Source of the DNA: Nostoc sp. DedSLP01
GTDB taxonomy: Bacteria; Cyanobacteriota; Cyanobacteriia; Cyanobacteriales; Nostocaceae
NCBI GenBank assembly: GCA_034530875.2
Contig: JAVRCJ020000002.1
Span: 64,001 to 128,000 of the forward strand
Length of the DNA: 64,000 nt
Direction of reading: 5' to 3'
The position numbers and the translations under genes were made by a program. The notes under the pieces are model-generated. The model had not been told where the DNA came from. It saw only the letters and a program-made list of their open reading frames with translations, and did no database searches. Of this stretch, positions 41,774-51,766 are shown one piece after another (the stretch's first letter is position 1; each line of letters opens with the position of its first letter).

Positions 41774-42409
41774 CTATTCTTCTTCCTTCTTGTTTTCAAT
41801 ATTAGTTATTTTGGTATTTTCCATCACAATATAGTTTTCCGGTTTTTTTTGTTCTTCTTTCTTCTCTTGTACAACTTGTGTGGCATATATTTCTACATCT
41901 CGCTGGATAATATCTTCTACTTGACCAGCAAAAAAATTAAATGCCTGTTCGTGACTTGTATAATCACGATAAGGGCCTGTCAATTGGGAAAATTGCCATC
42001 CTTGAGTTTTCAAAGATTCCACCGTGCGGCGATAATGCCGCCAGCGTTCTCCATAATGAAAAAATTCTTCAACGGCAGCGCTAATAGCAACGAATTGGCC
42101 GAGAACAAAAGTAGAAACGTTAATTAAATTTTTAACTTCAATATTAGTTCCAGGAATTTTATTCTTTAAATCAGTATTCAGATTGAGAGTAATCAACGCG
42201 GGCAGAATTACGCCACCGATAATGGTTGATAGCCGCCAAAAATAATAGCGATCGCGGGAAAAATTCGCCTTACCTTCCATCCAAAGTACTTGGTCTAACC
42301 AACGCGATCGTAAAAAATGTCTTTGGACATCTCCTAGCTTCATGCCTTCAAACAATTTGTTAAAATCTTCCTTTAAAAATTCTTGATAACTATTCTTTTT
42401 TGCCATCAT
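41774..42409 (-). CDS. DUF4231/SLATT-family two-TM protein
   Basis: RWLDQ..W, two TM helices, F.Y.ERW..YR.T.E.LK. Confidence 0.85.
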   Translation of the reverse strand: MMAKKNSYQEFLKEDFNKLFEGMKLGDVQRHFLRSRWLDQVLWMEGKANFSRDRYYFWRLSTIIGGVILPALITLNLNTDLKNKIPGTNIEVKNLINVSTFVLGQFVAISAAVEEFFHYGERWRHYRRTVESLKTQGWQFSQLTGPYRDYTSHEQAFNFFAGQVEDIIQRDVEIYATQVVQEKKEEQKKPENYIVMENTKITNIENKKEEE

Positions 42410-43162
42410 TTACTCCTTAGCAGAAAGCAAACCCTTAATTATTTCCCCTAAGTTACCAACTTCTTCCTCTATATCGATTAAATTGATATACAGCAATTTA
42501 CCAGATTTGGCTAATTCTTTAGCGCGATCGTCCGTGGCGTTTCCCACCAAAGCACCAGCGAGTATATCTGCGGTTCTACCACTACCAGCAATTACTACAA
42601 CTAACCTACCAGTATTAACACTAGAAAACGCATCTTTAAAGGTAATTTCGCCACCATTTAAAAGTACTGTTACCGAAGGCGCGCCATTAGCTAATACCGT
42701 CGCCACTTCAGATATCCAAGGAGATTCATCGCCCCAATTACTACCAGGAACTAACACAAAATGAGTATGATTTGGCTCTAACGGCGTCAAATCAGCGTCA
42801 GCTGCTAACTGATTTGGTAAAATCGCTTTCTTTTCAGGTGTCACACCAACCAAAGCAAACTTAGCATCTATTTGGGTACGAGCCGCACCCATTAATCGCA
42901 TGACTCCCGCATCCGTACCCCCATCCACGACATAAGCGCCTAAACTTTCAGCGATGGGGGCTAAAACTTCCACGAATAACCGTTGGATGCGGAGAAAGTC
43001 AGCTTCACTGATATTACTCGCACCCCCCACCACCACTAAAACAGGACGCGAACCGCTAAGTCCTATTTCCTCTAAAGCATTTGGCAAATTTGTTTGTTGA
43101 TTAACTCGAATAGCTAATGCTGTTTGTCCGTTGTCAAAGGTAAGTTCCAAACAATTGTTCAT
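42410..43162 (-). CDS. SLOG-superfamily protein, prokaryotic TRPM N-terminal-like (LSDAT)
   Basis: VVVGGA, VDGGTDAGVM, LEPNHTHFVLV, NGG, VIAGSGRTAD. Confidence 0.85.
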   Translation of the reverse strand: MNNCLELTFDNGQTALAIRVNQQTNLPNALEEIGLSGSRPVLVVVGGASNISEADFLRIQRLFVEVLAPIAESLGAYVVDGGTDAGVMRLMGAARTQIDAKFALVGVTPEKKAILPNQLAADADLTPLEPNHTHFVLVPGSNWGDESPWISEVATVLANGAPSVTVLLNGGEITFKDAFSSVNTGRLVVVIAGSGRTADILAGALVGNATDDRAKELAKSGKLLYINLIDIEEEVGNLGEIIKGLLSAKE

Positions 43163-43256
43163 TTGTCTAAATTACTGACTGCCTAAGTTTTACAGGGTAG
43201 ACCTTTGCAGTCATGTTCGGCAAGCGTTGTATTACGCACACTTGTCGATTAAGCAT

Positions 43257-43417
43257 GTTTCCATAACGTTTTCATCTCGGTTGGAGAAAGTCTGAGATTC
43301 CTTTTGGTTTCCATCGTCTTTGGGGATGAGGTAAGTGGAAAGTTATCTCACTTTTCAAAAAAACTTCAAATGCTTCTGATGTTTCCATGCCCTTTCGAGG
43401 CGATCAATGTAATAAAT
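43257..43417 (-). CRISPR. Degenerate orphan CRISPR-like mini-array (3 repeats; 38-nt and 16-nt spacers)
   Basis: Three units starting GTTTCCAT at 43257, 43307, 43381; two end GAAAG; 36-nt repeat plus 38-nt spacer period; minus strand ends ATGGAAAC after a stem-loop. Confidence 0.6.
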
Positions 43418-43521
43418 CAAATCATAAGTTCATTACAACAATTGCTGCAATGATTTAAGCGTTTTTTATATATGGAATAGCAATTGCTGCAAAGTATTAA
43501 ACATTTTTGCAACTAGTGATA

Positions 43522-43651
43522 TAAGTAGAATGCCGTAAAAAATCAAAGTATGTAACGAAAAGTAAAGTTGCCCAAAAAGCTCTTCCCTCCTGCCTTCTGC
43601 CCTCTGCCTCCTGCCTTGCCATAACGACAATTTTCAACACCAACCTACTTA
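43522..43651. mobile_element. MITE-like element with internal CTGCC[CT] heptamers
   Basis: TAAGTAG...CTACTTA ends. Confidence 0.55.
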
Positions 43652-43834
43652 TTTTCAAGAAAGACTTAAGCCTTTCTTATATATAAAATAGCCTTTGTTG
43701 CAAAGTATTAAGCTTATATCTAAACTATTGACAAACTTTTAAAAGACTGGTCTTATTTAATAAAAATAAGTTGTTTTCCAAATAAAGAAAATGCATCAAC
43801 TCAATAAAATTACCATCAAATCAATAAGATTACT

Positions 43835-44290
43835 ATGTCTATAACATCTACAATTTACAAAATTAACACTCCATCAGTTGCTCATGAAACAATTGATGGT
43901 GAAGTTGTAGTCATTAACCTAAAAACAGGAGAGTATTATAGTTTATTAAAAGTAGCTGCTGAAATTTGGAATCAAATCGAAAAAGGCATCTCTAAACAAA
44001 ACATCATTGCAGAACTCTCTGAACAATATAATAATATCAACCAAGAAATTCAAAATTATGTAGATAATTTTTTTGAAGAACTACAGCAAGAACATCTCAT
44101 TAAGTTAGAAGGAAATAATATAGATATACCAAAAAATTCCAAGGTTTTTTATACACAAATACAAACAGAAACAATTACAGAAAAAATAGAATTTGAACCA
44201 CCAAAATTAAATAAATTTACTGATATGAGAGAATTACTTTTGCTAGATCCCATCCATGAAGTAAATGAAACCGGCTGGCCAAATACTTAG
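43835..44290 (+). CDS. PqqD/RRE-domain protein with C-terminal leader/core-like tail
   Basis: ETIDGEVVVINL.TGEYYSL...AAEIW, F.EEL...LI; tail FEPPKLNKFTDMRELLLLDPIHEVNETGWP. Confidence 0.85.
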   Translation: MSITSTIYKINTPSVAHETIDGEVVVINLKTGEYYSLLKVAAEIWNQIEKGISKQNIIAELSEQYNNINQEIQNYVDNFFEELQQEHLIKLEGNNIDIPKNSKVFYTQIQTETITEKIEFEPPKLNKFTDMRELLLLDPIHEVNETGWPNT

Positions 44291-44413
44291 TAAAATCATG
44301 CAATAGACCTGCCTTGAAAATAGGGACTCTTTACTGGTGACTGGTGACTAGGAAAGAAATATTTTCATTCCTTCGTTGTGAATTGTATTCATGGAGTAAG
44401 AGTGCATAAATAT

Positions 44414-44506
44414 TAGACCTCTTGCAAAAGTCCCTTAATACCCCACCCCCCAGTTCCTCCCCGCAGGCGGGGTGGGGTTCTTTTTTTGATTTCTGCAAGA
44501 AGTCTA
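44414..44506. mobile_element. MITE-like element
   Basis: TIRs TAGACCTCTTGCA / TGCAAGAAGTCTA. Confidence 0.7.
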
Positions 44507-44642
44507 ATGACTTTTTTCAGCCTAAAGGTATGAATAATCTTCTCTCAGCCTTGATAAAAAACCTCTATATTATTTATGTTCAAATTTAGCAATACTGAAA
44601 TAATGTATTAAACCTTCTAATTTCAAAGGGAAATATTCAAGA

Positions 44643-45326
44643 ATGAATCAAGGATTGGTTAGTGTTATTATTGCTATAAAAAATGGAGAACGGTACTTAG
44701 CAGCAGCTATTGACAGTGTTATAGCTCAAACTTATAAATGCTATGAAATTATCGTGATTGATGGCAACTCTACAGATAATACTGAAAAAATTGCTAAATC
44801 TTATAAGCAAGTTCGCTACGTATCTCAGCCTAGTCAAGGGATTGCTAATGCTTATAACTTAGGAATCGATCTAGCTCAAGGAGAGTTCATTTCCTTTATT
44901 TCCCATGACGATCTGTGGACACCCGATAAATTAACTATTCAAGTAAATTATTTACTAGATCGTCCAGAAATTCAATACACGATCGCTAGAGTCAAATTTT
45001 TTCTTGAGGAAGGATTTTCTATTCCACCTGGATTTAGACCAGAGTTGTTAATAGGCGATCGTATTGCCTATATTATGGAAACTTTGGTCGTGCGAAAAAC
45101 TATATTTGCTCAAATCGGTATGTTAAATCCTGAACTTAGTGTAGCAGAAGATGTTGATTGGTTTGCTAGAGCTAGCGATCGTCAGGTTTTACACATGGCA
45201 ATTCAGAAAGTTTTACTTTATAAACGCGTTCATGATAGCAATCTTTCATTAACATCATCAATTAATAATCAGAATCTACTAAGTATACTTAGACAATCAA
45301 TTAAACGTAAACGTAATTTAATATAG
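44643..45326 (+). CDS. Glycosyltransferase family 2
   Basis: VSVII, IDGNSTD, SHDD, EDVDW. Confidence 0.92.
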   Translation: MNQGLVSVIIAIKNGERYLAAAIDSVIAQTYKCYEIIVIDGNSTDNTEKIAKSYKQVRYVSQPSQGIANAYNLGIDLAQGEFISFISHDDLWTPDKLTIQVNYLLDRPEIQYTIARVKFFLEEGFSIPPGFRPELLIGDRIAYIMETLVVRKTIFAQIGMLNPELSVAEDVDWFARASDRQVLHMAIQKVLLYKRVHDSNLSLTSSINNQNLLSILRQSIKRKRNLI

Positions 45327-45337
45327 GAAAAATATGG

Positions 45338-46048
45338 ATGGCAAATAATCCATTGGTTAGCGTAATCATTCCAGTGTATAACTGTAATCAATATCTCGCC
45401 CAAGCAATTGAAAGTGTATTATCACAAACCTATCAGCCAATTGAAATTATCGTCGTTGATGATGGTTCAACTGATAATAGTGCTGAAGTTGCAAAGCATT
45501 ATGCTCCACTAATTCGCTACTGTTTCCAATCTAACGCTGGTAGTGGTGCTGCCCGAAATCGTGGCATAGAATTAGCCCAAGGAGAATTCTTTGCTTTTCT
45601 CGATGCAGATGACCTTTGGGTGAAAGATAAATTGATGCATCAAATGGCAGCTTTTAATAATAATAGTGAACTTCATATTGTATTCGGACAAGTCAAACAG
45701 TTTCATAGCCCAGAATTAGATGAGGCTTTTAAAGCCAAAATACACTGTCCTGCTGAATTAATGCCAGGAACTATACCCTCAGCACTACTGATGAAGCGGG
45801 AGGCTTTTTTCCATGTAGGTCGATTTGAAGTTAATTGGCAAGTAGTAGAATTTGCTAGTTGGTATATGCGTGCAAATGAATTAAATATGAATATGCTGAT
45901 TCTGCCAGAATTAGTCACACTCCGACGTTTACACACAACAAATAAAGGGGTTAGCCAACAACGTCAAGAAATTACAGAATATGCGCATATTTTGAAAGCT
46001 TCCCTTGACAGACGTCGGATAGCTAGCGAAAGAAAAGTAGAGGTTTAA
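45338..46048 (+). CDS. Glycosyltransferase family 2
   Basis: VSVIIPVYN, DDGSTD, ARN.G, FLDADD. Confidence 0.93.
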   Translation: MANNPLVSVIIPVYNCNQYLAQAIESVLSQTYQPIEIIVVDDGSTDNSAEVAKHYAPLIRYCFQSNAGSGAARNRGIELAQGEFFAFLDADDLWVKDKLMHQMAAFNNNSELHIVFGQVKQFHSPELDEAFKAKIHCPAELMPGTIPSALLMKREAFFHVGRFEVNWQVVEFASWYMRANELNMNMLILPELVTLRRLHTTNKGVSQQRQEITEYAHILKASLDRRRIASERKVEV

Positions 46049-46300
46049 TATATTCAAATAAAATCTGGATTATTCGAATAATATTGAGGATTTGACTACA
46101 AAAGTCAAGATTAAATTGGAAAAATGAGCAAAATTATAGAAGAAAAAATTTAATTTATGTATTAAGTCTAAAAAAAGACTGAAAATAAATTTTATAAATG
46201 AAAAATTGAATAAGAATTAATGTTTTTTATAACTAAATAAGAATTATTACTAATCACATATAAAATCAAATTCCATGATAAATAAAGTGAATTAAAACAC

Positions 46301-47185
46301 ATGAAATCTGAGAAAAAACCTAACTTAGATTTACCAACTCCTCAGCAAAAATTACTTTTGCAAGCCTCTCTTCTTCATGGTCAAAATGCGCTGAATGCTT
46401 GGCAATCGTGGAGTGAAATTGTTGATATTGAAAAGTTAGATTCAGAATCATATAATTTGTTGTGTTTACTTTATCGGAATTTGTCTGTACACAAAATACA
46501 ACACTCAAAAATAACAATAATTAAAGGTATTTACCGCCGTACATGGTATGCTAACCAACTCCTATTTAGCAAAATTCAACCTATTTTACAGACTTTTTAT
46601 GAGACTGGAATTAAAATACTGATGCTTGCAGATATTGCTTTGATTAGCAATTATTACCAAGATTACGGTCACCGACCAGTGTATGCCATAGATTTGTTTA
46701 TACCTTCATTAGATATTGATAAAGCAATTAAGCTGTTGGCAAATTTAGGCTGGAAAAAAGTCACATCAGAAAAACTTGATTTTGAATTGCAGGATGAATT
46801 CCCACAATTACTTTTTATTCCCCGTGGTATCTTCTGGGCTGAACCTCAAGAAAAGACCGATAATCAACTTTGGAATTATGCAATTTCCTGCAAAATTAGT
46901 AATATTTCTACTCTAGCTCTGAGCCATACCGATCAATTATTATATATCTGCTTACGGGCGTTTCCAACGAATCAGTTGCAAGAAATTCGTTGGCTAGCTG
47001 ATGCTATGATTATTCTTCAAGCTTATGGAAATGAAATTGATTGGAGCAGATTAGTTACCCAAGCACAAAGGTATCAGTTAGTTTTACCATTAAAAAATAT
47101 GCTGACTATCCTAGAAGAAATTTTTAATTTTTTAATACCTAACTGGGTTTTAGCAAGTTTAAATAAAACGCCAAATTGTCCTTGA
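46301..47185 (+). CDS. Nucleotidyltransferase-family protein (NTP_transf_5-like) with degenerate active-site motifs
   Basis: LYRNL, KGIYRRTWYANQ, YY.D.G.RP...IDL, IRWLAD, IDW..L. Confidence 0.75.
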   Translation: MKSEKKPNLDLPTPQQKLLLQASLLHGQNALNAWQSWSEIVDIEKLDSESYNLLCLLYRNLSVHKIQHSKITIIKGIYRRTWYANQLLFSKIQPILQTFYETGIKILMLADIALISNYYQDYGHRPVYAIDLFIPSLDIDKAIKLLANLGWKKVTSEKLDFELQDEFPQLLFIPRGIFWAEPQEKTDNQLWNYAISCKISNISTLALSHTDQLLYICLRAFPTNQLQEIRWLADAMIILQAYGNEIDWSRLVTQAQRYQLVLPLKNMLTILEEIFNFLIPNWVLASLNKTPNCP

Positions 47186-47299
47186 AATTTGTTATTAAAT
47201 CAAATTAAACCTGAAAAAAGTCTAATTATTCAAATTTCCTTAATAAAAACCCAAATAAAGTTAAATTAATTTCTAATTAATACCAACCAAGGTTAACTA

Positions 47300-48718
47300 A
47301 TGAATCAAGAATCATTTGACAATACAAATTTAGCAGAAGCTAAATGTAAATTGGCTAATATATGGCAAGTGAAGGGGAGAATAGAATTAGCAACTGCTGG
47401 TTATCAAGAAGCTTTACGATTACAACCAGACTATATACCAGCGTATGAATCTTTGGCTAATTTAAGCATCCATCAAAACCGAATGAATGAAGCAATTCAA
47501 TATTATGAAAAAGCTTTATCTATAAATTTTGAGGCTACAGATTTATCTGTTTATTATATATATCTTGGATTATCATTAAAAATAATTAGACAGGAAGATA
47601 TAGAAATCTACAATTCAGATTTTTTGCAAGCTTACTATATCAAGGATAATCCAAATGGAAAAATAAATTTATCTAGCCAGAAGGAATTTGATTTTCATAG
47701 AAGTGGTTGGAATTTTGCACTCAATGCTTTAAAACCTTTGCATAATAGTCAAGGTATTTTGTTTGATGGATTTATTGAGAATAATTTTGTCTGGGATTAC
47801 GGAATTGCTAATGAAATATCTCCTTTAATTGTGGAAAAAATGAAACGAGATGGAGTATTTAATATCCTGAAAAATAAGTTTGCATTAGAAAAAAAACTAA
47901 TTGTACCTTATACCCAACCTTGGGCAGGTTTCATTCATAATCCACAAGAAATGCCAACTTGGCTTTATTATGAATCTTCTCCTCAAAAACTTTTTACTAA
48001 AGATATATGGAAGAAAAGTTTATATTCTTGCATTGGTCTATTTGCATTTTCAGAATACCATGCTCAATGGTTACGAGAACAAACAGGAAAAATAGTTTCT
48101 ACTTTAATCCATCCAACAGAAATACCAGAAATACAATTCAATTTTCATAAATTTTTAGAGAATCCTGAGAAAAAAGTTGTGCAGATTGGTTGGTGGTTAA
48201 GAAAGCTAAGTGCAATTTATCAGTTACCTATTGCTAAAAATAATGTCTTAAACTTTGAAAAACTAAGATTAATTCCTATGTATTGTGACAATGCAGATGA
48301 ACAGCAAGAAGAAATCATCGCCAAGGAAATTAAGATTAATAATTTAAAAATTGAACCTGCTTTTTCAAGTAATACTAAAGAAATAAAGCATATATCAAAT
48401 ACTGAATACGATATACTCTTGTCAGAAAATATAGCGTTTATGGAATTATATGACTCTAGTGTAAATAACGCAGTTATTGAATGTATTGCTAGAGGAACTC
48501 CACTTTTAATTAATCCTTTACCCGCAGTAGTAGAATATCTTGGGAAAGATTATCCTATGTACTTTACTAGTTTATCAGAAGCTGCAAAAAAAGCTGTGGA
48601 TACTTCATTGATTTTAGATACTCATAATTATTTAATAAATTGTGAAACCAGAAATAAGTTATCTCAAGAGTATTTTTTGAAAAGCTTTGAGGAAAGTGAA
48701 GTCTATCAATTAATTTAA
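47300..48718 (+). CDS. TPR-containing protein with glycosyltransferase-like (GT-B) C-terminal domain
   Basis: N-terminal TPRs; NNAVIECIARGTPLLIN..PAVVEYLG. Confidence 0.7.
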   Translation: MNQESFDNTNLAEAKCKLANIWQVKGRIELATAGYQEALRLQPDYIPAYESLANLSIHQNRMNEAIQYYEKALSINFEATDLSVYYIYLGLSLKIIRQEDIEIYNSDFLQAYYIKDNPNGKINLSSQKEFDFHRSGWNFALNALKPLHNSQGILFDGFIENNFVWDYGIANEISPLIVEKMKRDGVFNILKNKFALEKKLIVPYTQPWAGFIHNPQEMPTWLYYESSPQKLFTKDIWKKSLYSCIGLFAFSEYHAQWLREQTGKIVSTLIHPTEIPEIQFNFHKFLENPEKKVVQIGWWLRKLSAIYQLPIAKNNVLNFEKLRLIPMYCDNADEQQEEIIAKEIKINNLKIEPAFSSNTKEIKHISNTEYDILLSENIAFMELYDSSVNNAVIECIARGTPLLINPLPAVVEYLGKDYPMYFTSLSEAAKKAVDTSLILDTHNYLINCETRNKLSQEYFLKSFEESEVYQLI

Positions 48719-48784
48719 GTACCAGACCAAACCCATCTAAATGATTTACTACTTGTTTAATTCCGAAAATGACAAAATAGGGAT

Positions 48785-49540
48785 ATGCTCAAAGTCACAT
48801 TATCAATTAGTGTTATTCTTCCGGTTTATAACGGAGAGAGGTTTTTAGTGCAGGCGATTGAGAATATTCAAGGGCAAAATTATCAGCCCCTGGAAATTAT
48901 TGTTGTCGATGATGGTTCTACCGATCGCACCGCCGAAATTGCCAAAGAATTTGAGGACAACATTCACTATATCTATCAACCCAATCAAGGCCCTTCCTCT
49001 GCTCGCAATCGCGGAATCAAAAGCGCGCGAGGAGAAGCGATCGCTTTTCTCGATGTTGACGATCTATGGGAAGAGGGAGTATTGGCCGAATTCGCTGATT
49101 ATTTAGTAGCTAATCCCGAAGTGGATATCGTTCAGGGATTAATTCAGCAAATGCAGATAGAGAATCTTCCCTCGGAAAATGATTCTTACCAATTCAAACC
49201 TGTCTTTCAACCTTATCAGTTTATTAATCTGGGGAGTGCTATCTACCGTCGATCGGTGTTCGATCGAGTGGGTTTACTCGACCCCAAGCTACATGATAAT
49301 GAAGATACCGATTGGTTTATGCGCGCTTGGGAAAACGATATTTGTAAAGTTGTTATACCTAAACTTATGTTGTATTACCGAAAACACGATCGCAATATGA
49401 CCCTACACCAAAAAGATTTAGTACATTTCGGAATGCTCAAAATCTACAAGCGTCGCATCGATCGTATGCGGGCGCAGGGGAAAGAAAAACATACTTCCTC
49501 CGTATCCTGGTATAGCTATTATGGTAAAACGCCGGAGTGA
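48785..49540 (+). CDS. Glycosyltransferase family 2
   Basis: SVILPVYNG, DDGSTD, FLDVDD, EDTDW. Confidence 0.93.
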   Translation: MLKVTLSISVILPVYNGERFLVQAIENIQGQNYQPLEIIVVDDGSTDRTAEIAKEFEDNIHYIYQPNQGPSSARNRGIKSARGEAIAFLDVDDLWEEGVLAEFADYLVANPEVDIVQGLIQQMQIENLPSENDSYQFKPVFQPYQFINLGSAIYRRSVFDRVGLLDPKLHDNEDTDWFMRAWENDICKVVIPKLMLYYRKHDRNMTLHQKDLVHFGMLKIYKRRIDRMRAQGKEKHTSSVSWYSYYGKTPE

Positions 49541-49694
49541 ATTTAATTGTTTGCGTAAGTCCTGAGTTAGAAAAGCAGCAATACTACCTTCCAAAGAAGC
49601 ATGTCTAGCTCTCAGCAGTGCTGAGTCTAAACTCCAGTTAATTACTCAGTATATAGAAGTGTTAAGGAGAAAAGGCGATGAAGCTGATTCTATC

Positions 49695-50519
49695 TTATCT
49701 AGGCAAGCGGTCAAAATCTTGCGGATTTATTTTATCAACATATTTTGAAATAATATCTCCAATCCTGTTTTCAAATTTTATGCCAGAATCCGAAGTGAAA
49801 CTTTGCGGCTCCCACCATACGTAGTTATCAGACGGAAAAGGGAGTGGGTAATAGTCGATTTCTTTCTGATAAATCTCTACTGGGTAAAAGTCAGACATCA
49901 CAATTTGTCCTGGAAAAAAAGTGTTAAGCGTGACTATTTTGTAGGTTAGTTGAGGAAAGACACATTTGATGACCTGATTCAAGCGACTTGGATATGTATT
50001 GTGTTCACAGACAAACAAAATATTATCGTCTGCAATATACCGATAGAAATTAGCAATACGCGCCCTATATAGCTCTATTAATTTGGCAAAATTGTTGGCT
50101 GCGTATAGCTCGTGTTTGCCATCTATTGATTCGTGACGAAACCTCACATTGTATTTAGTATGCTCAATGTAATTATCCTCGGTCACTATCAGGAAATCAG
50201 AGTTACAATAATCCTTAAAGCTTGACTTAATAATTTCACACAGACCATCATAATGATGCAAAGATAAATCAAAAGGTAATGTCAGTTCCCCTTGAGCTTT
50301 TGTCTGTTTATATCCTTGGCGTGTAAGTATGGTGCGTGGAAGACAGCTATATCCTAAAGAAATTATATGGTTATAATTTACTTGTCTCACTATTGCTCTG
50401 TGTGAATATATTAGTGATTTTTTGAACGGCAGGTAATTATCAGTATTTAATTTAAACCTGTACTTATAAAAAGCAGCATAACTTCCTGGAATATTACAAC
50501 AATTTCGCACTTTGGGCAA
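49695..50519 (-). CDS. DUF1796-like putative papain-like cysteine peptidase (start uncertain)
   Basis: IISLG.SC, PFD, F.HE, Y..RI.NF. Confidence 0.7.
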   Translation of the reverse strand: MPKVRNCCNIPGSYAAFYKYRFKLNTDNYLPFKKSLIYSHRAIVRQVNYNHIISLGYSCLPRTILTRQGYKQTKAQGELTLPFDLSLHHYDGLCEIIKSSFKDYCNSDFLIVTEDNYIEHTKYNVRFRHESIDGKHELYAANNFAKLIELYRARIANFYRYIADDNILFVCEHNTYPSRLNQVIKCVFPQLTYKIVTLNTFFPGQIVMSDFYPVEIYQKEIDYYPLPFPSDNYVWWEPQSFTSDSGIKFENRIGDIISKYVDKINPQDFDRLPR

Positions 50520-50863
50520 GTTGGAACTGCCAGTACCAGAAATTCCAAATTCAAAAATTTAAAAGGATGTTTGAAAAGTAGTTAAAAGCGAATGAATATG
50601 GCATTAGCTACATATTCAATTGTCCATTTTTATTTCGGCGACTAAATTTGCTACTTTAGCGTTAGCTCGTTTGTCTGTACACCTATGCAAGCGGGGAGGC
50701 GAAGTCCATTGCAAATTGGTATTATGCCCCTACCGATGTACTTCATGTACCTGAAAAATGCTGTATATCTGGTATCTAGGCACAAAGCCTATTTTAATTC
50801 TGAATTTTGATTGCGACTCTCAAAACTGGGTGATTTGAAATTTTTAATCGGGGCAAAATTACC

Positions 50864-51766
50864 ATGACTGCTGCTGTCTGCTTAGAAAACGTCTACAAAT
50901 TTTACAACAATGTACCTGTAGTCAATGACTTGTCATTCCAAATTGAAACCGGGGAAATATTTGCTTTACTCGGCCCTAACGGTGCGGGAAAATCTACCAC
51001 AATTCGGATGCTGACTACACTCACCAAACCTTCCCAAGGACGGATAGAAGTAAATGGATATGATGTGGTACGGCAACCAATGTTAGCAAAACAGAGTATT
51101 GGCGTAGTCTTGCAGCAAGTCAGTGTAGATAACGATCTAACCGTTTGGGAAAATATGGAACTGCATGGAAGACTGCATCATATTAGCAATCCGCAGCGAC
51201 AACAATTAATTAATCAATGGTTAGAGTATGTTGAATTAACACAAAAGCGTAATGATTTGGTCAAAACCCTGTCTGGGGGTATGAAACGACGGTTGCAGAT
51301 AGCGAGGGCTTTATTGCATCAACCGCAAATGTTATTTTTGGATGAACCAACGGTAGGACTAGACCCCCAAACCAGACGACGCCTTTGGGAAATTATTCGA
51401 GATTTGAATAAGCAGGGAATGACGATGCTACTAACGACCCATTATATGGATGAGGTCGAATTTTTGTGCGATGCTTTTGGCTCTACCAAACCAGGACGCA
51501 TCGGTATTATGGATGGCGGGAAGCTAATTTCTCTGGGAACGCTAAAACAACTGCGTTCTACTTACGGTGAAGGTTTGGTGATGAAGCAATTAGGTTTATC
51601 CGAAGTAGGAAGTGACAGCGCCCTAGCTTTAGAATATTTGTTTTTCCCTTCGTTGGAAGAAGCAAATAGCTACTTGAATCAACAACCCGATAAAACTGGA
51701 ATGATGGTGCGTCCCTCTAACTTGGAAGATATTTTTGTGGAATTAACGGGACGCCAGTTAGATTAA
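50864..51766 (+). CDS. ABC transporter ATP-binding protein (ABC-2/NodI-like)
   Basis: GPNGAGKS, LSGG, FLDEPT, THYM. Confidence 0.93.
   Translation: MTAAVCLENVYKFYNNVPVVNDLSFQIETGEIFALLGPNGAGKSTTIRMLTTLTKPSQGRIEVNGYDVVRQPMLAKQSIGVVLQQVSVDNDLTVWENMELHGRLHHISNPQRQQLINQWLEYVELTQKRNDLVKTLSGGMKRRLQIARALLHQPQMLFLDEPTVGLDPQTRRRLWEIIRDLNKQGMTMLLTTHYMDEVEFLCDAFGSTKPGRIGIMDGGKLISLGTLKQLRSTYGEGLVMKQLGLSEVGSDSALALEYLFFPSLEEANSYLNQQPDKTGMMVRPSNLEDIFVELTGRQLD

What the first reader, a model, noticed from the sequence alone, without database searches (positions are those of the whole stretch)
43257..43417. Degenerate CRISPR-like mini-array in the leader of the SLOG-SLATT operon
Seen (minus strand, 5'->3'): ATTTATTACATTGATCGCCTCGAAAGGGCATGGAAAC - 38 nt - CTTTCCACTTACCTCATCCCCAAAGACGATGGAAAC - 16 nt - CTTTCTCCAACCGAGATGAAAACGTTATGGAAAC, ending about 95 nt before the SLOG start codon. 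All three units keep the 8-nt ATGGAAAC end, and the first keeps a GAAA-loop hairpin just before it. Known: cyanobacterial type I-D/III repeats are 35-37 nt with a hairpin followed by an 8-nt ...GAAAC handle cut by Cas6, and degenerate mini-arrays can be regulatory (CreTA/CreR-type). Inference: with no cas gene in the window, this may be a Cas6-processed regulatory RNA tying a putative toxic membrane effector to the host CRISPR machinery; it could equally be a decayed orphan array. I found no target for either spacer in the window by eye.
Basis: partly seen in the sequence, partly recalled or inferred. Interest (0 to 1): 0.85.

Follow-up and report, generated by a model that had tools for sequence, protein, structure and literature searches.

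The report
Decayed orphan type III CRISPR remnant
The repeats are real CRISPR DNA, but they are most likely the worn-out tail of an old stand-alone array that once landed in front of these two genes, not a control switch for them.

Summary
The three ATGGAAAC ends are real (about 0.001 such triples expected per genome). Units 1 and 2 rank first and second genome-wide against a profile of a type III-linked cyanobacterial repeat family; unit 3 is collapsed trailer DNA, not a whole repeat. The same locus in relatives holds a leader plus 8 or 3 intact repeats, one repeat, trailer only, a leader stub, or nothing. All traces fall in one 17-genome clade; 0 of 55 other SLOG loci examined have any. Here a ~7.2-kb gene island replaced the leader and front of the array. 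The matching long Cas6, RAMP and Cas10 genes were not found in this genome; intact repeats occur in 3 of 8 clade genomes with that Cas6 and 0 of 8 without. Spacer 1 has no promoter, phage or plasmid target found, and its seed is not kept in relatives. Verdict: a decaying orphan-array relic (about 0.85), a known kind; a regulatory RNA is unlikely (about 0.05). The scan's notes showed no earlier report of it.

The parts
43381..43417 (-). Degenerate type III-family CRISPR repeat 1; its first few bases overlap the end of a dispersed repeat
   Evidence: Profile score 20.2, best in genome; 9 mismatches to nearest intact repeat; shifted 4-pair stem still ends at the base before the handle; overlap
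43343..43380 (-). Old spacer (38 nt), no target found; distal part shared with the spacer at this locus in G342 and G348, 5' seed not shared
43307..43342 (-). Degenerate repeat 2, the old last full repeat of the array; stem broken
   Evidence: Score 18.1; 5 mismatches to the repeat in L190, all at positions 16-27; same position as the last full repeat in G345, G373, G344
43291..43306 (-). Shortened trailer spacer, shared with drift among clade genomes
43257..43290 (-). Collapsed trailer: internally deleted repeat ending ATGAAAAC (43290-43268) plus an extra handle (43267-43257)
   Evidence: Score -42 as a whole repeat; motif found in 9 of 72 SLOG loci; a less decayed form in G400
43172..43241 (-). 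Conserved block before the SLOG start, independent of the array, with a 7-pair inverted repeat (43213-43207 / 43182-43176)
   Evidence: Present in all 27 rows aligned, with or without array traces
42410..43162 (-). SLOG gene (LSDAT_prok, 250 aa)
   Evidence: PF18171 E 4e-67; match in 83 of 126 other genomes of the genus
41774..42409 (-). SLATT / DUF4231 two-helix membrane protein gene (211 aa)
   Evidence: PF14015; NF033634 SLATT_1 above cut-off
43409..43711 (.). Dispersed repeats where the CRISPR leader used to be: pieces of an ~84-bp tandem element (43409-43506, 43660-43711) split by a ~130-bp multi-copy element (43521-43652)
   Evidence: no match to the family leader at this locus
43418..50624 (.). 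~7.2-kb segment absent at this locus in relatives (PqqD, three GT2, nucleotidyltransferase, TPR, DUF1796) that replaced the leader and the front of the array
50864..51766 (+). ABC-transporter ATPase gene, the direct upstream neighbour of the array and SLOG in relatives
   Evidence: 96% identical to the G344 neighbour; adjacent to SLOG in the loci

Best explanation
The stretch is the trailer end of an orphan CRISPR array of the type III-linked repeat family, now decaying. Shown: an array with its own ~230-nt leader sits between the ABC gene and SLOG-SLATT in two relatives, and traces of it occur only in one clade. Inferred: it arrived once, in that clade's ancestor, and was served in trans by a type III system elsewhere in the genome. 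Shown: this genome has no match to that type III machinery, and a 7.2-kb segment stands where the leader and most repeats were. Inferred: with no leader promoter and no matching Cas6 or effector, the two repeats left behind collect mutations and make no working guide. The position in front of SLOG-SLATT is an accident of insertion; the operon's own conserved 5' block lies downstream and does not depend on it.
For: Intact orthologous arrays in G344 (leader + 8 repeats) and G373 (leader + 3) with the same trailer. Repeat score above 10 in 7 of 72 SLOG loci and the trailer motif in 9 of 72, all inside one clade; best score outside it -12. Clean losses in G022 and G356 (leader stub joined to downstream DNA), G369 and G376. 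The same leader and repeat family sits beside a 370-aa Cas6 and Cas10/Cmr2 in L184, and at many unrelated cas-free sites. No RAMP, Cas10 or long Cas6 found in G000, which is 99.8% complete. Intact repeats in 3 of 8 clade genomes with the long Cas6 and 0 of 8 without; decayed-in-place repeats in 4 of 8 without and 0 of 8 with. Two more lone decayed repeats of the family elsewhere in G000. No target for spacer 1; its seed is not conserved.
Against: All three handles are letter-perfect, and repeat 1 keeps a 4-pair stem ending exactly at the Cas6 position (pair probability 0.98). All 5 changes in repeat 2 fall in the stem region, which is more clustered than even decay would give, though the comparison repeat was picked as the nearest. 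G345 keeps a near-perfect last repeat without a leader. The genome is a 113-contig draft, so a type III locus could be unassembled. Clade genomes are kin, so the Cas6 counts are not independent.
Confidence: 0.85

Rival explanations
1. A CreA/CreR/CRISIS-type regulatory guide: the host Cas6 cuts repeat 1, and the type I Cascade uses spacer 1 to repress the SLOG-SLATT promoter or another promoter.
For: Two divergent repeats around one spacer is the published shape of such guides (10.1101/2023.03.03.530964), and one supervised system has a SLATT gene (10.1101/2024.12.27.630466). Repeat 1 keeps a stem and handle. A type I operon is present.
Against: The repeats are not of the host type I family. 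Best 5'-anchored match is 3 nt in the SLOG leader and 6 nt upstream of the cas operon; longest match at any offset is 7 nt in both. The unit is not in a cas locus. The seed is not conserved. In Anabaena 7120 the short Cas6 did not cut the type III group repeats (mapping to this genome inferred).
Confidence: 0.05
2. A relic that acts passively in cis: it is part of the SLOG-SLATT 5' region and alters transcript start, stability or processing without guiding anything. In relatives with the long Cas6, cutting at the last repeat would give the operon a processed 5' end.
For: Array and operon point the same way; the trailer motif survives in 9 of 15 genomes of the inner clade; G345 keeps an intact last repeat with no leader; in G356 and G022 the leader's TTGACA stub now lies just upstream of SLOG.
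Against: G369, G376, G022 and G356 have the long Cas6 yet lost the repeats; G341, G376 and G396 show no trace at all. The weak hairpin before the third handle is broken in several relatives (by eye). 55 of 72 loci work without any of it.
Confidence: 0.08
3. Chance likeness of AT-rich promoter DNA to CRISPR repeats.
For: Each unit folds no better than shuffles; no Rfam family matches; a gapped HMM barely finds unit 1.
Against: About 0.001 triples expected; top two profile hits in the genome; intact arrays at the orthologous site.
Confidence: 0.01

Closest known systems
Orphan group 1 (type III) CRISPR arrays of Anabaena sp. PCC 7120 (Reimann et al., 10.1101/2020.04.14.041012; read parts 1-4 of 5, figures not visible)
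   Same: Cas-free array in a filamentous cyanobacterium, served in trans by a long Cas6 with an extra C-terminal domain; the family here sits beside 370-378 aa Cas6 genes and type III effectors.
   Different: Those arrays are transcribed and processed and the host has the matching Cas6. Here the leader is gone, the repeats are decayed and the matching Cas6 was not found. The paper's repeat letters are in images, so identity with its group 1 is inferred.
Type III-B and orphan array repeats of Nodularia spumigena UHCC 0039 (PMC5853447; passages seen)
   Same: One of the two printed repeats has the same CTTTCCA start, ACCTC core and GATGGAAAC end as unit 2 (compared by eye).
   Different: Its C4/G4 stem is intact and both loci are transcribed; unit 2 has two of the four stem pairs broken.
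CreA / CreR mini-arrays (Shmakov et al., 10.1101/2023.03.03.530964; read part 1 of 10 and passages)
   Same: Two divergent repeats around one spacer.
   Different: Those lie in type I or V-A cas loci, resemble the local repeat, are conserved among relatives and pair with a promoter beside a PAM; none of this was met here. The paper found no enrichment between type III cas genes.
CRISIS crRNA-like regulators of defence genes (Shu et al., 10.1101/2024.12.27.630466; read part 1 of 6 and passages)
   Same: A repeat-like unit next to a putative defence operon; one CRISIS has a SLATT protein.
   Different: CRISIS genes sit inside type I-C cas operons, the repeat unit follows the genes and targets their promoter with a PAM. 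Here the unit precedes the genes, there is no cas operon nearby and no target was found.
Array-targeting Tn7-like transposons (PMC11837452; abstract start and passages)
   Same: In relative G344 a TnsA/TnsC/TniQ remnant sits in the spacer before the last full repeat of the orthologous array, with a 5-bp duplication, the position that paper reports as common.
   Different: It is not in this window; it only shows that the ancestral array was a normal array. Membership of that element in the family was not tested by phylogeny.

Membership tests
Orphan type III-family CRISPR array (as origin) | Repeats match a family found in real arrays | tested here: met
   Units 1 and 2 rank 1 and 2 in the genome on a profile from 105 variants; unit 2 is 5 mismatches from the L190 repeat
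Orphan type III-family CRISPR array (as origin) | Spacer of normal length between repeats | tested here: met
   38 nt; 418 family spacers span 31-51 nt, most 35-40
Orphan type III-family CRISPR array (as origin) | Family linked to type III cas genes elsewhere | tested here: met
   L184: same leader and repeat beside Cas6 and Cas10/Cmr2; L143 and L145: same 3' half beside Cas6 and Csx7-type RAMPs
Working orphan array | Leader with promoter upstream | tested here: not met
   No match to the G344 leader at this locus; dispersed repeats and a 7.2-kb segment instead
Working orphan array | Matching Cas6 and effector in the same genome | tested here: not met
   Only Cas6 found is 271 aa and 27-29% identical to the long type; RAMP and Cas10 not found; draft genome
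Working orphan array | Intact stem before the 8-nt handle | tested here: inconclusive
   Unit 1 keeps a shifted 4-pair stem; unit 2 lost it
Working orphan array | Transcribed and processed to crRNA | not testable with these tools
   Needs small-RNA data
CreA/CreR/CRISIS regulatory mini-array | Inside or beside a type I (or V-A) cas locus | tested here: not met
   cas genes found only on contigs C26 and C64
CreA/CreR/CRISIS regulatory mini-array | Repeats derive from the host effector's own repeat | tested here: not met
   Host type I repeat has a different stem and an ATTGAAAC handle; no host array within 13 mismatches of units 1 or 2 among the best hits listed
CreA/CreR/CRISIS regulatory mini-array | Spacer seed (10 nt or more) pairs with a promoter next to a PAM | tested here: not met
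   3 nt in the SLOG leader, 6 nt at the cas operon, 4 nt at cas12k; 38 genome-wide 10-nt seed matches including itself were not checked one by one for promoters
CreA/CreR/CRISIS regulatory mini-array | Unit and seed conserved among related loci | tested here: not met
   Two-repeat form in 1 of 72 loci; G342 and G348 share only the distal spacer
CreA/CreR/CRISIS regulatory mini-array | Cas-dependent repression shown | not testable with these tools
   Needs reporter or knockout work

The most novel reading that the evidence does not exclude
A type III array relic has been taken over as a cis control element of a SLOG-SLATT membrane-effector operon: the leader promoter drives the operon in some relatives, and Cas6 cutting at the last repeat (or, here, at the register-shifted stem of repeat 1 by the type I Cas6) sets the operon's 5' end and level, so that losing or inhibiting CRISPR changes effector output without any guide-target pairing.
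Probability: 0.07. Interest if true: 0.75.

Novelty: new member of a known kind. Interest (0 to 1): 0.17.

Why it matters
As a relic it matters little by itself. It is a warning for mini-array searches: two degenerate repeats in front of a defence-like operon can be plain decay, and the orthologous locus settles it. The 17-genome series (intact, transposon-split, one repeat, decayed, deleted) and its link to presence of the long Cas6 is a tidy natural record of how orphan arrays in filamentous cyanobacteria die. If the cis-control reading held, it would be a new way to tie an effector to CRISPR status.

Tried and rejected
Rfam: no match near any gathering score. PADLOC: no model for SLOG or SLATT. 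Spacer 1 targets: 0 exact matches of a 30-mer and a 22-mer in viral contigs; only E 5-6 hits in unrelated phages and plasmids; 23/24 and 23/25 hits in G337 and G243 are at the chance level for 389 genomes; longest self match 17 nt, reached by 11 of 200 shuffles. The DNA 5' of unit 1 looked like a CRISPR leader but is dispersed repeats. The 21-mer from the 5' half of unit 2 gave 16 single hits in other genomes, none in an array. Metagenome scans gave 0 and 1 loci; the one locus was not used. A conserved RNA fold before SLOG was not predicted; the named 7-pair helix was 90% paired with weak covariation, so it may be a DNA site. No fold or complex job was sent, as none bears on the question. In one search, 3 of 75 loci were dropped for lacking a SLOG hit; G016 and G309 are broken copies on long branches; G315, G121 and G126 had under 1200 nt upstream. 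Literature searches listed no paper on CRISPR repeats before a cyanobacterial SLOG-SLATT operon; Hou et al. 2019 was not seen and is known only through Reimann et al.; bioRxiv supplements, which hold the repeat alignments, were not seen.

Full report
Observation. The octamer occurs 285 times on both strands of the 8.57-Mb genome; this is the only cluster of three, against about 0.001 expected. The units fold no better than shuffles and match no Rfam family.

Which repeat family. The arrays found in this genome are five of a type I family and one beside cas12k; none has this handle. A 23-nt motif from a relative's array matched 15 of 127 genomes of the genus, mostly as runs at 70-77 nt spacing, and matched unit 1 with 2 mismatches. 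A scan of genome contigs returned 50 loci. From those with three or more repeats, leaving out two that carry the SLOG operon and one duplicate, I built a profile of 105 repeat variants. Units 1 and 2 scored 20.2 and 18.1 bits, ranks 1 and 2 in the genome; unit 3 as drawn scored -42. A gapped HMM from the same set was much less sensitive (unit 1 at E 48, unit 2 not listed), which I report against this test. Unit 2 is 5 mismatches from a repeat in L190 and resembles a type III-B repeat printed for Nodularia (PMC5853447, passages). Most of these arrays have no cas gene in the DNA held, judged from ORF lists. Where cas genes are present they are type III: L184 has the same leader and repeat beside a 370-aa Cas6 and Cas10/Cmr2, and L143 and L145 have the same 3' half beside Cas6 and Csx7-type RAMPs.

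The host lacks the matching machinery. One cas1 and one cas6 were found, both on contig C26, in an operon that PADLOC models type as Cas8b/7b/5b with Cas3. That Cas6 is 271 aa and 27-29% identical to the long type III enzymes. RAMP and Cas10/Cmr2 searches found nothing; the genome is 99.8% complete but in 113 contigs. In Anabaena 7120 the 377-aa Cas6 cut the type III group of repeats and the 290-aa Cas6 did not, in vitro and in vivo (10.1101/2020.04.14.041012, parts 1-4 of 5 read). That these two enzymes correspond to the long and short types here is my inference from length, mutual identity and gene context; the repeat letters in that paper are images I could not see.

The orthologous locus. 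SLOG matched in 148 of 389 genomes of the family. I examined the upstream DNA of 72 loci, one per genome (75 given, 3 without a SLOG hit) and built a tree of the gene. A repeat score above 10 was found in 7 and the trailer motif in 9, all within a clade of 15 genomes (support 100/99); a leader stub in G356 extends the traces to a clade of 17 (99/94). The best score among the other 55 was -12. Inside the clade the states differ: leader plus 8 repeats with a Tn7-like remnant in the last spacer (G344), leader plus 3 (G373), one near-perfect last repeat (G345), two decayed repeats (this genome), one decayed repeat (G348, G342, G400), trailer only (G369, G022, G015, G349, G367, the last three with an internally deleted copy of unit 2 seen by eye), a leader stub (G356), and nothing seen (G376, G341, G396; G315 ends at a contig edge). 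In G022 the leader is joined straight to trailer DNA at a shared TTGAAAA, a clean deletion of the array. The 16-nt second spacer and unit 3 are this shared trailer: 41 of 51 columns are identical with G345, and G400 keeps a less decayed form showing that the stretch ending in ATGAAAAC was itself a repeat. Compressed units of this sort end other arrays of the family too (L138, L160).

What happened in this genome. In relatives an ABC-ATPase gene lies directly upstream. Here it is at 50864, and the shared flank stops at about 50625. The 7.2 kb between there and unit 1 hold PqqD, three glycosyltransferases, a nucleotidyltransferase, a TPR protein and DUF1796; parts of it match only a few genomes of the genus, at other places. 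Next to unit 1 lie dispersed repeats, not a leader. The promoter scan found 1 weak site against 3.3 expected, and a terminator-like hairpin at 43453-43430 just upstream of unit 1. So the leader and the front of the array were replaced and the tail was stranded; the order of events is inferred.

Decay tracks the enzyme. I searched 16 of the 17 clade genomes for the long Cas6. Eight have it at 61-81% identity; eight do not (two keep only a C-terminal piece). Near-perfect repeats at this locus occur in 3 of 8 with it and 0 of 8 without; repeats decayed in place occur in 4 of 8 without and 0 of 8 with. Four genomes with the enzyme lost the repeats by deletion, so the operon does not need them even when Cas6 is there. 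These genomes are kin and I give no P value. Two more lone decayed repeats of the family lie elsewhere in this genome, at C40:1041 and C1:318233, as expected after loss of a type III system.

The regulatory reading. Published regulatory mini-arrays lie in cas loci, derive from the local repeat, are conserved and pair through a seed with a promoter beside a PAM (10.1101/2023.03.03.530964, part 1 and passages; 10.1101/2024.12.27.630466, part 1 and passages). Spacer 1 gives a 5'-anchored match of 3 nt in the SLOG leader, 6 nt upstream of the cas operon and 4 nt at cas12k, and at most 7-9 nt at any offset. Genome-wide the best seeds are 14 nt with free sixth positions, among 38 ten-base seed hits that I did not check one by one. 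No phage or plasmid target was found. The same ancestral spacer survives in G342 and G348 (0 of 2000 shuffles score as high), but only its distal part; the seed is lost, the reverse of what a guide under selection shows. Against my reading: the three handles are perfect, unit 1 keeps a shifted 4-pair stem ending at the cut position (probability 0.98), and the five changes in unit 2 cluster in the stem region. Processing was not testable.

Mechanism and odds. Most likely (0.85) the stretch does nothing now: a stranded tail of an orphan type III array in a genome without the matching Cas6 and effector. A passive effect on the operon's 5' end (0.08) or a true guide (0.05) is not excluded. That SLOG-SLATT is a nucleotide-gated membrane effector is a prediction from the literature (PMC9503650, passages), not tested here; the pair is common in the genus with or without the array. 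Orphan arrays in filamentous cyanobacteria and Tn7-like elements that insert into them (PMC11837452, passages) are known, so this is a new member of a known kind, of low interest. The genus is inferred to be Nostoc-like from the named records that share the repeat family.

Noticed in passing
L081:13200-16590 (G344): Tn7-like remnant (TnsA-like, truncated TnsC, TniQ; TGT...ACA ends, 5-bp duplication) inside the last spacer of the orthologous array; fits the published array-targeting family.
   Followed up: partly
L134:5900-15417 (G317): Tn7-like element with a long transposase, TnsC and two TniQ genes about 2.7 kb from two repeats of the same family.
   Followed up: no
L120-L133, L136-L184: One leader-plus-array cassette with a shared ~230-nt leader stands at many unrelated chromosomal sites without cas genes across Nostocales; how it moves is not explained. 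The repeats carry a HIP1-like CGATCGC/CGATCAC core (motif name recalled).
   Followed up: partly
window 43172-43241 (minus): Conserved block before SLOG in the genus with a 7-pair inverted repeat, 90% paired, weak covariation; an RNA hairpin or a protein-binding site.
   Followed up: partly
L075 (G356) and L084 (G022), just upstream of SLOG: After deletion of the array, the TTGACA promoter stub of the CRISPR leader lies close before SLOG and could drive it.
   Followed up: no
window 43835-50519: Patchily distributed cluster of PqqD, three GT2 enzymes, an NTP_transf_5 protein, a TPR protein and DUF1796.
   Followed up: partly
window 43409-43506 and 43660-43711: Pieces of an ~84-bp tandem element found at several sites in many genomes of the genus, here split by a ~130-bp multi-copy element.
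   Followed up: partly
G000:C40:1006-1041 and G000:C1:318198-318233: Two more lone decayed repeats of the type III family; the second lies just upstream of a type I leader and array.
   Followed up: partly
G000:C64:3047-5904 (L186): cas12k with a 6-repeat array and no transposase gene recognised among the ORFs listed for that contig.
   Followed up: no
L084:16950-18400 (G022): SLOG carries a stop and is followed by a transposase-like ORF instead of SLATT, so the operon is broken in that genome.
   Followed up: no
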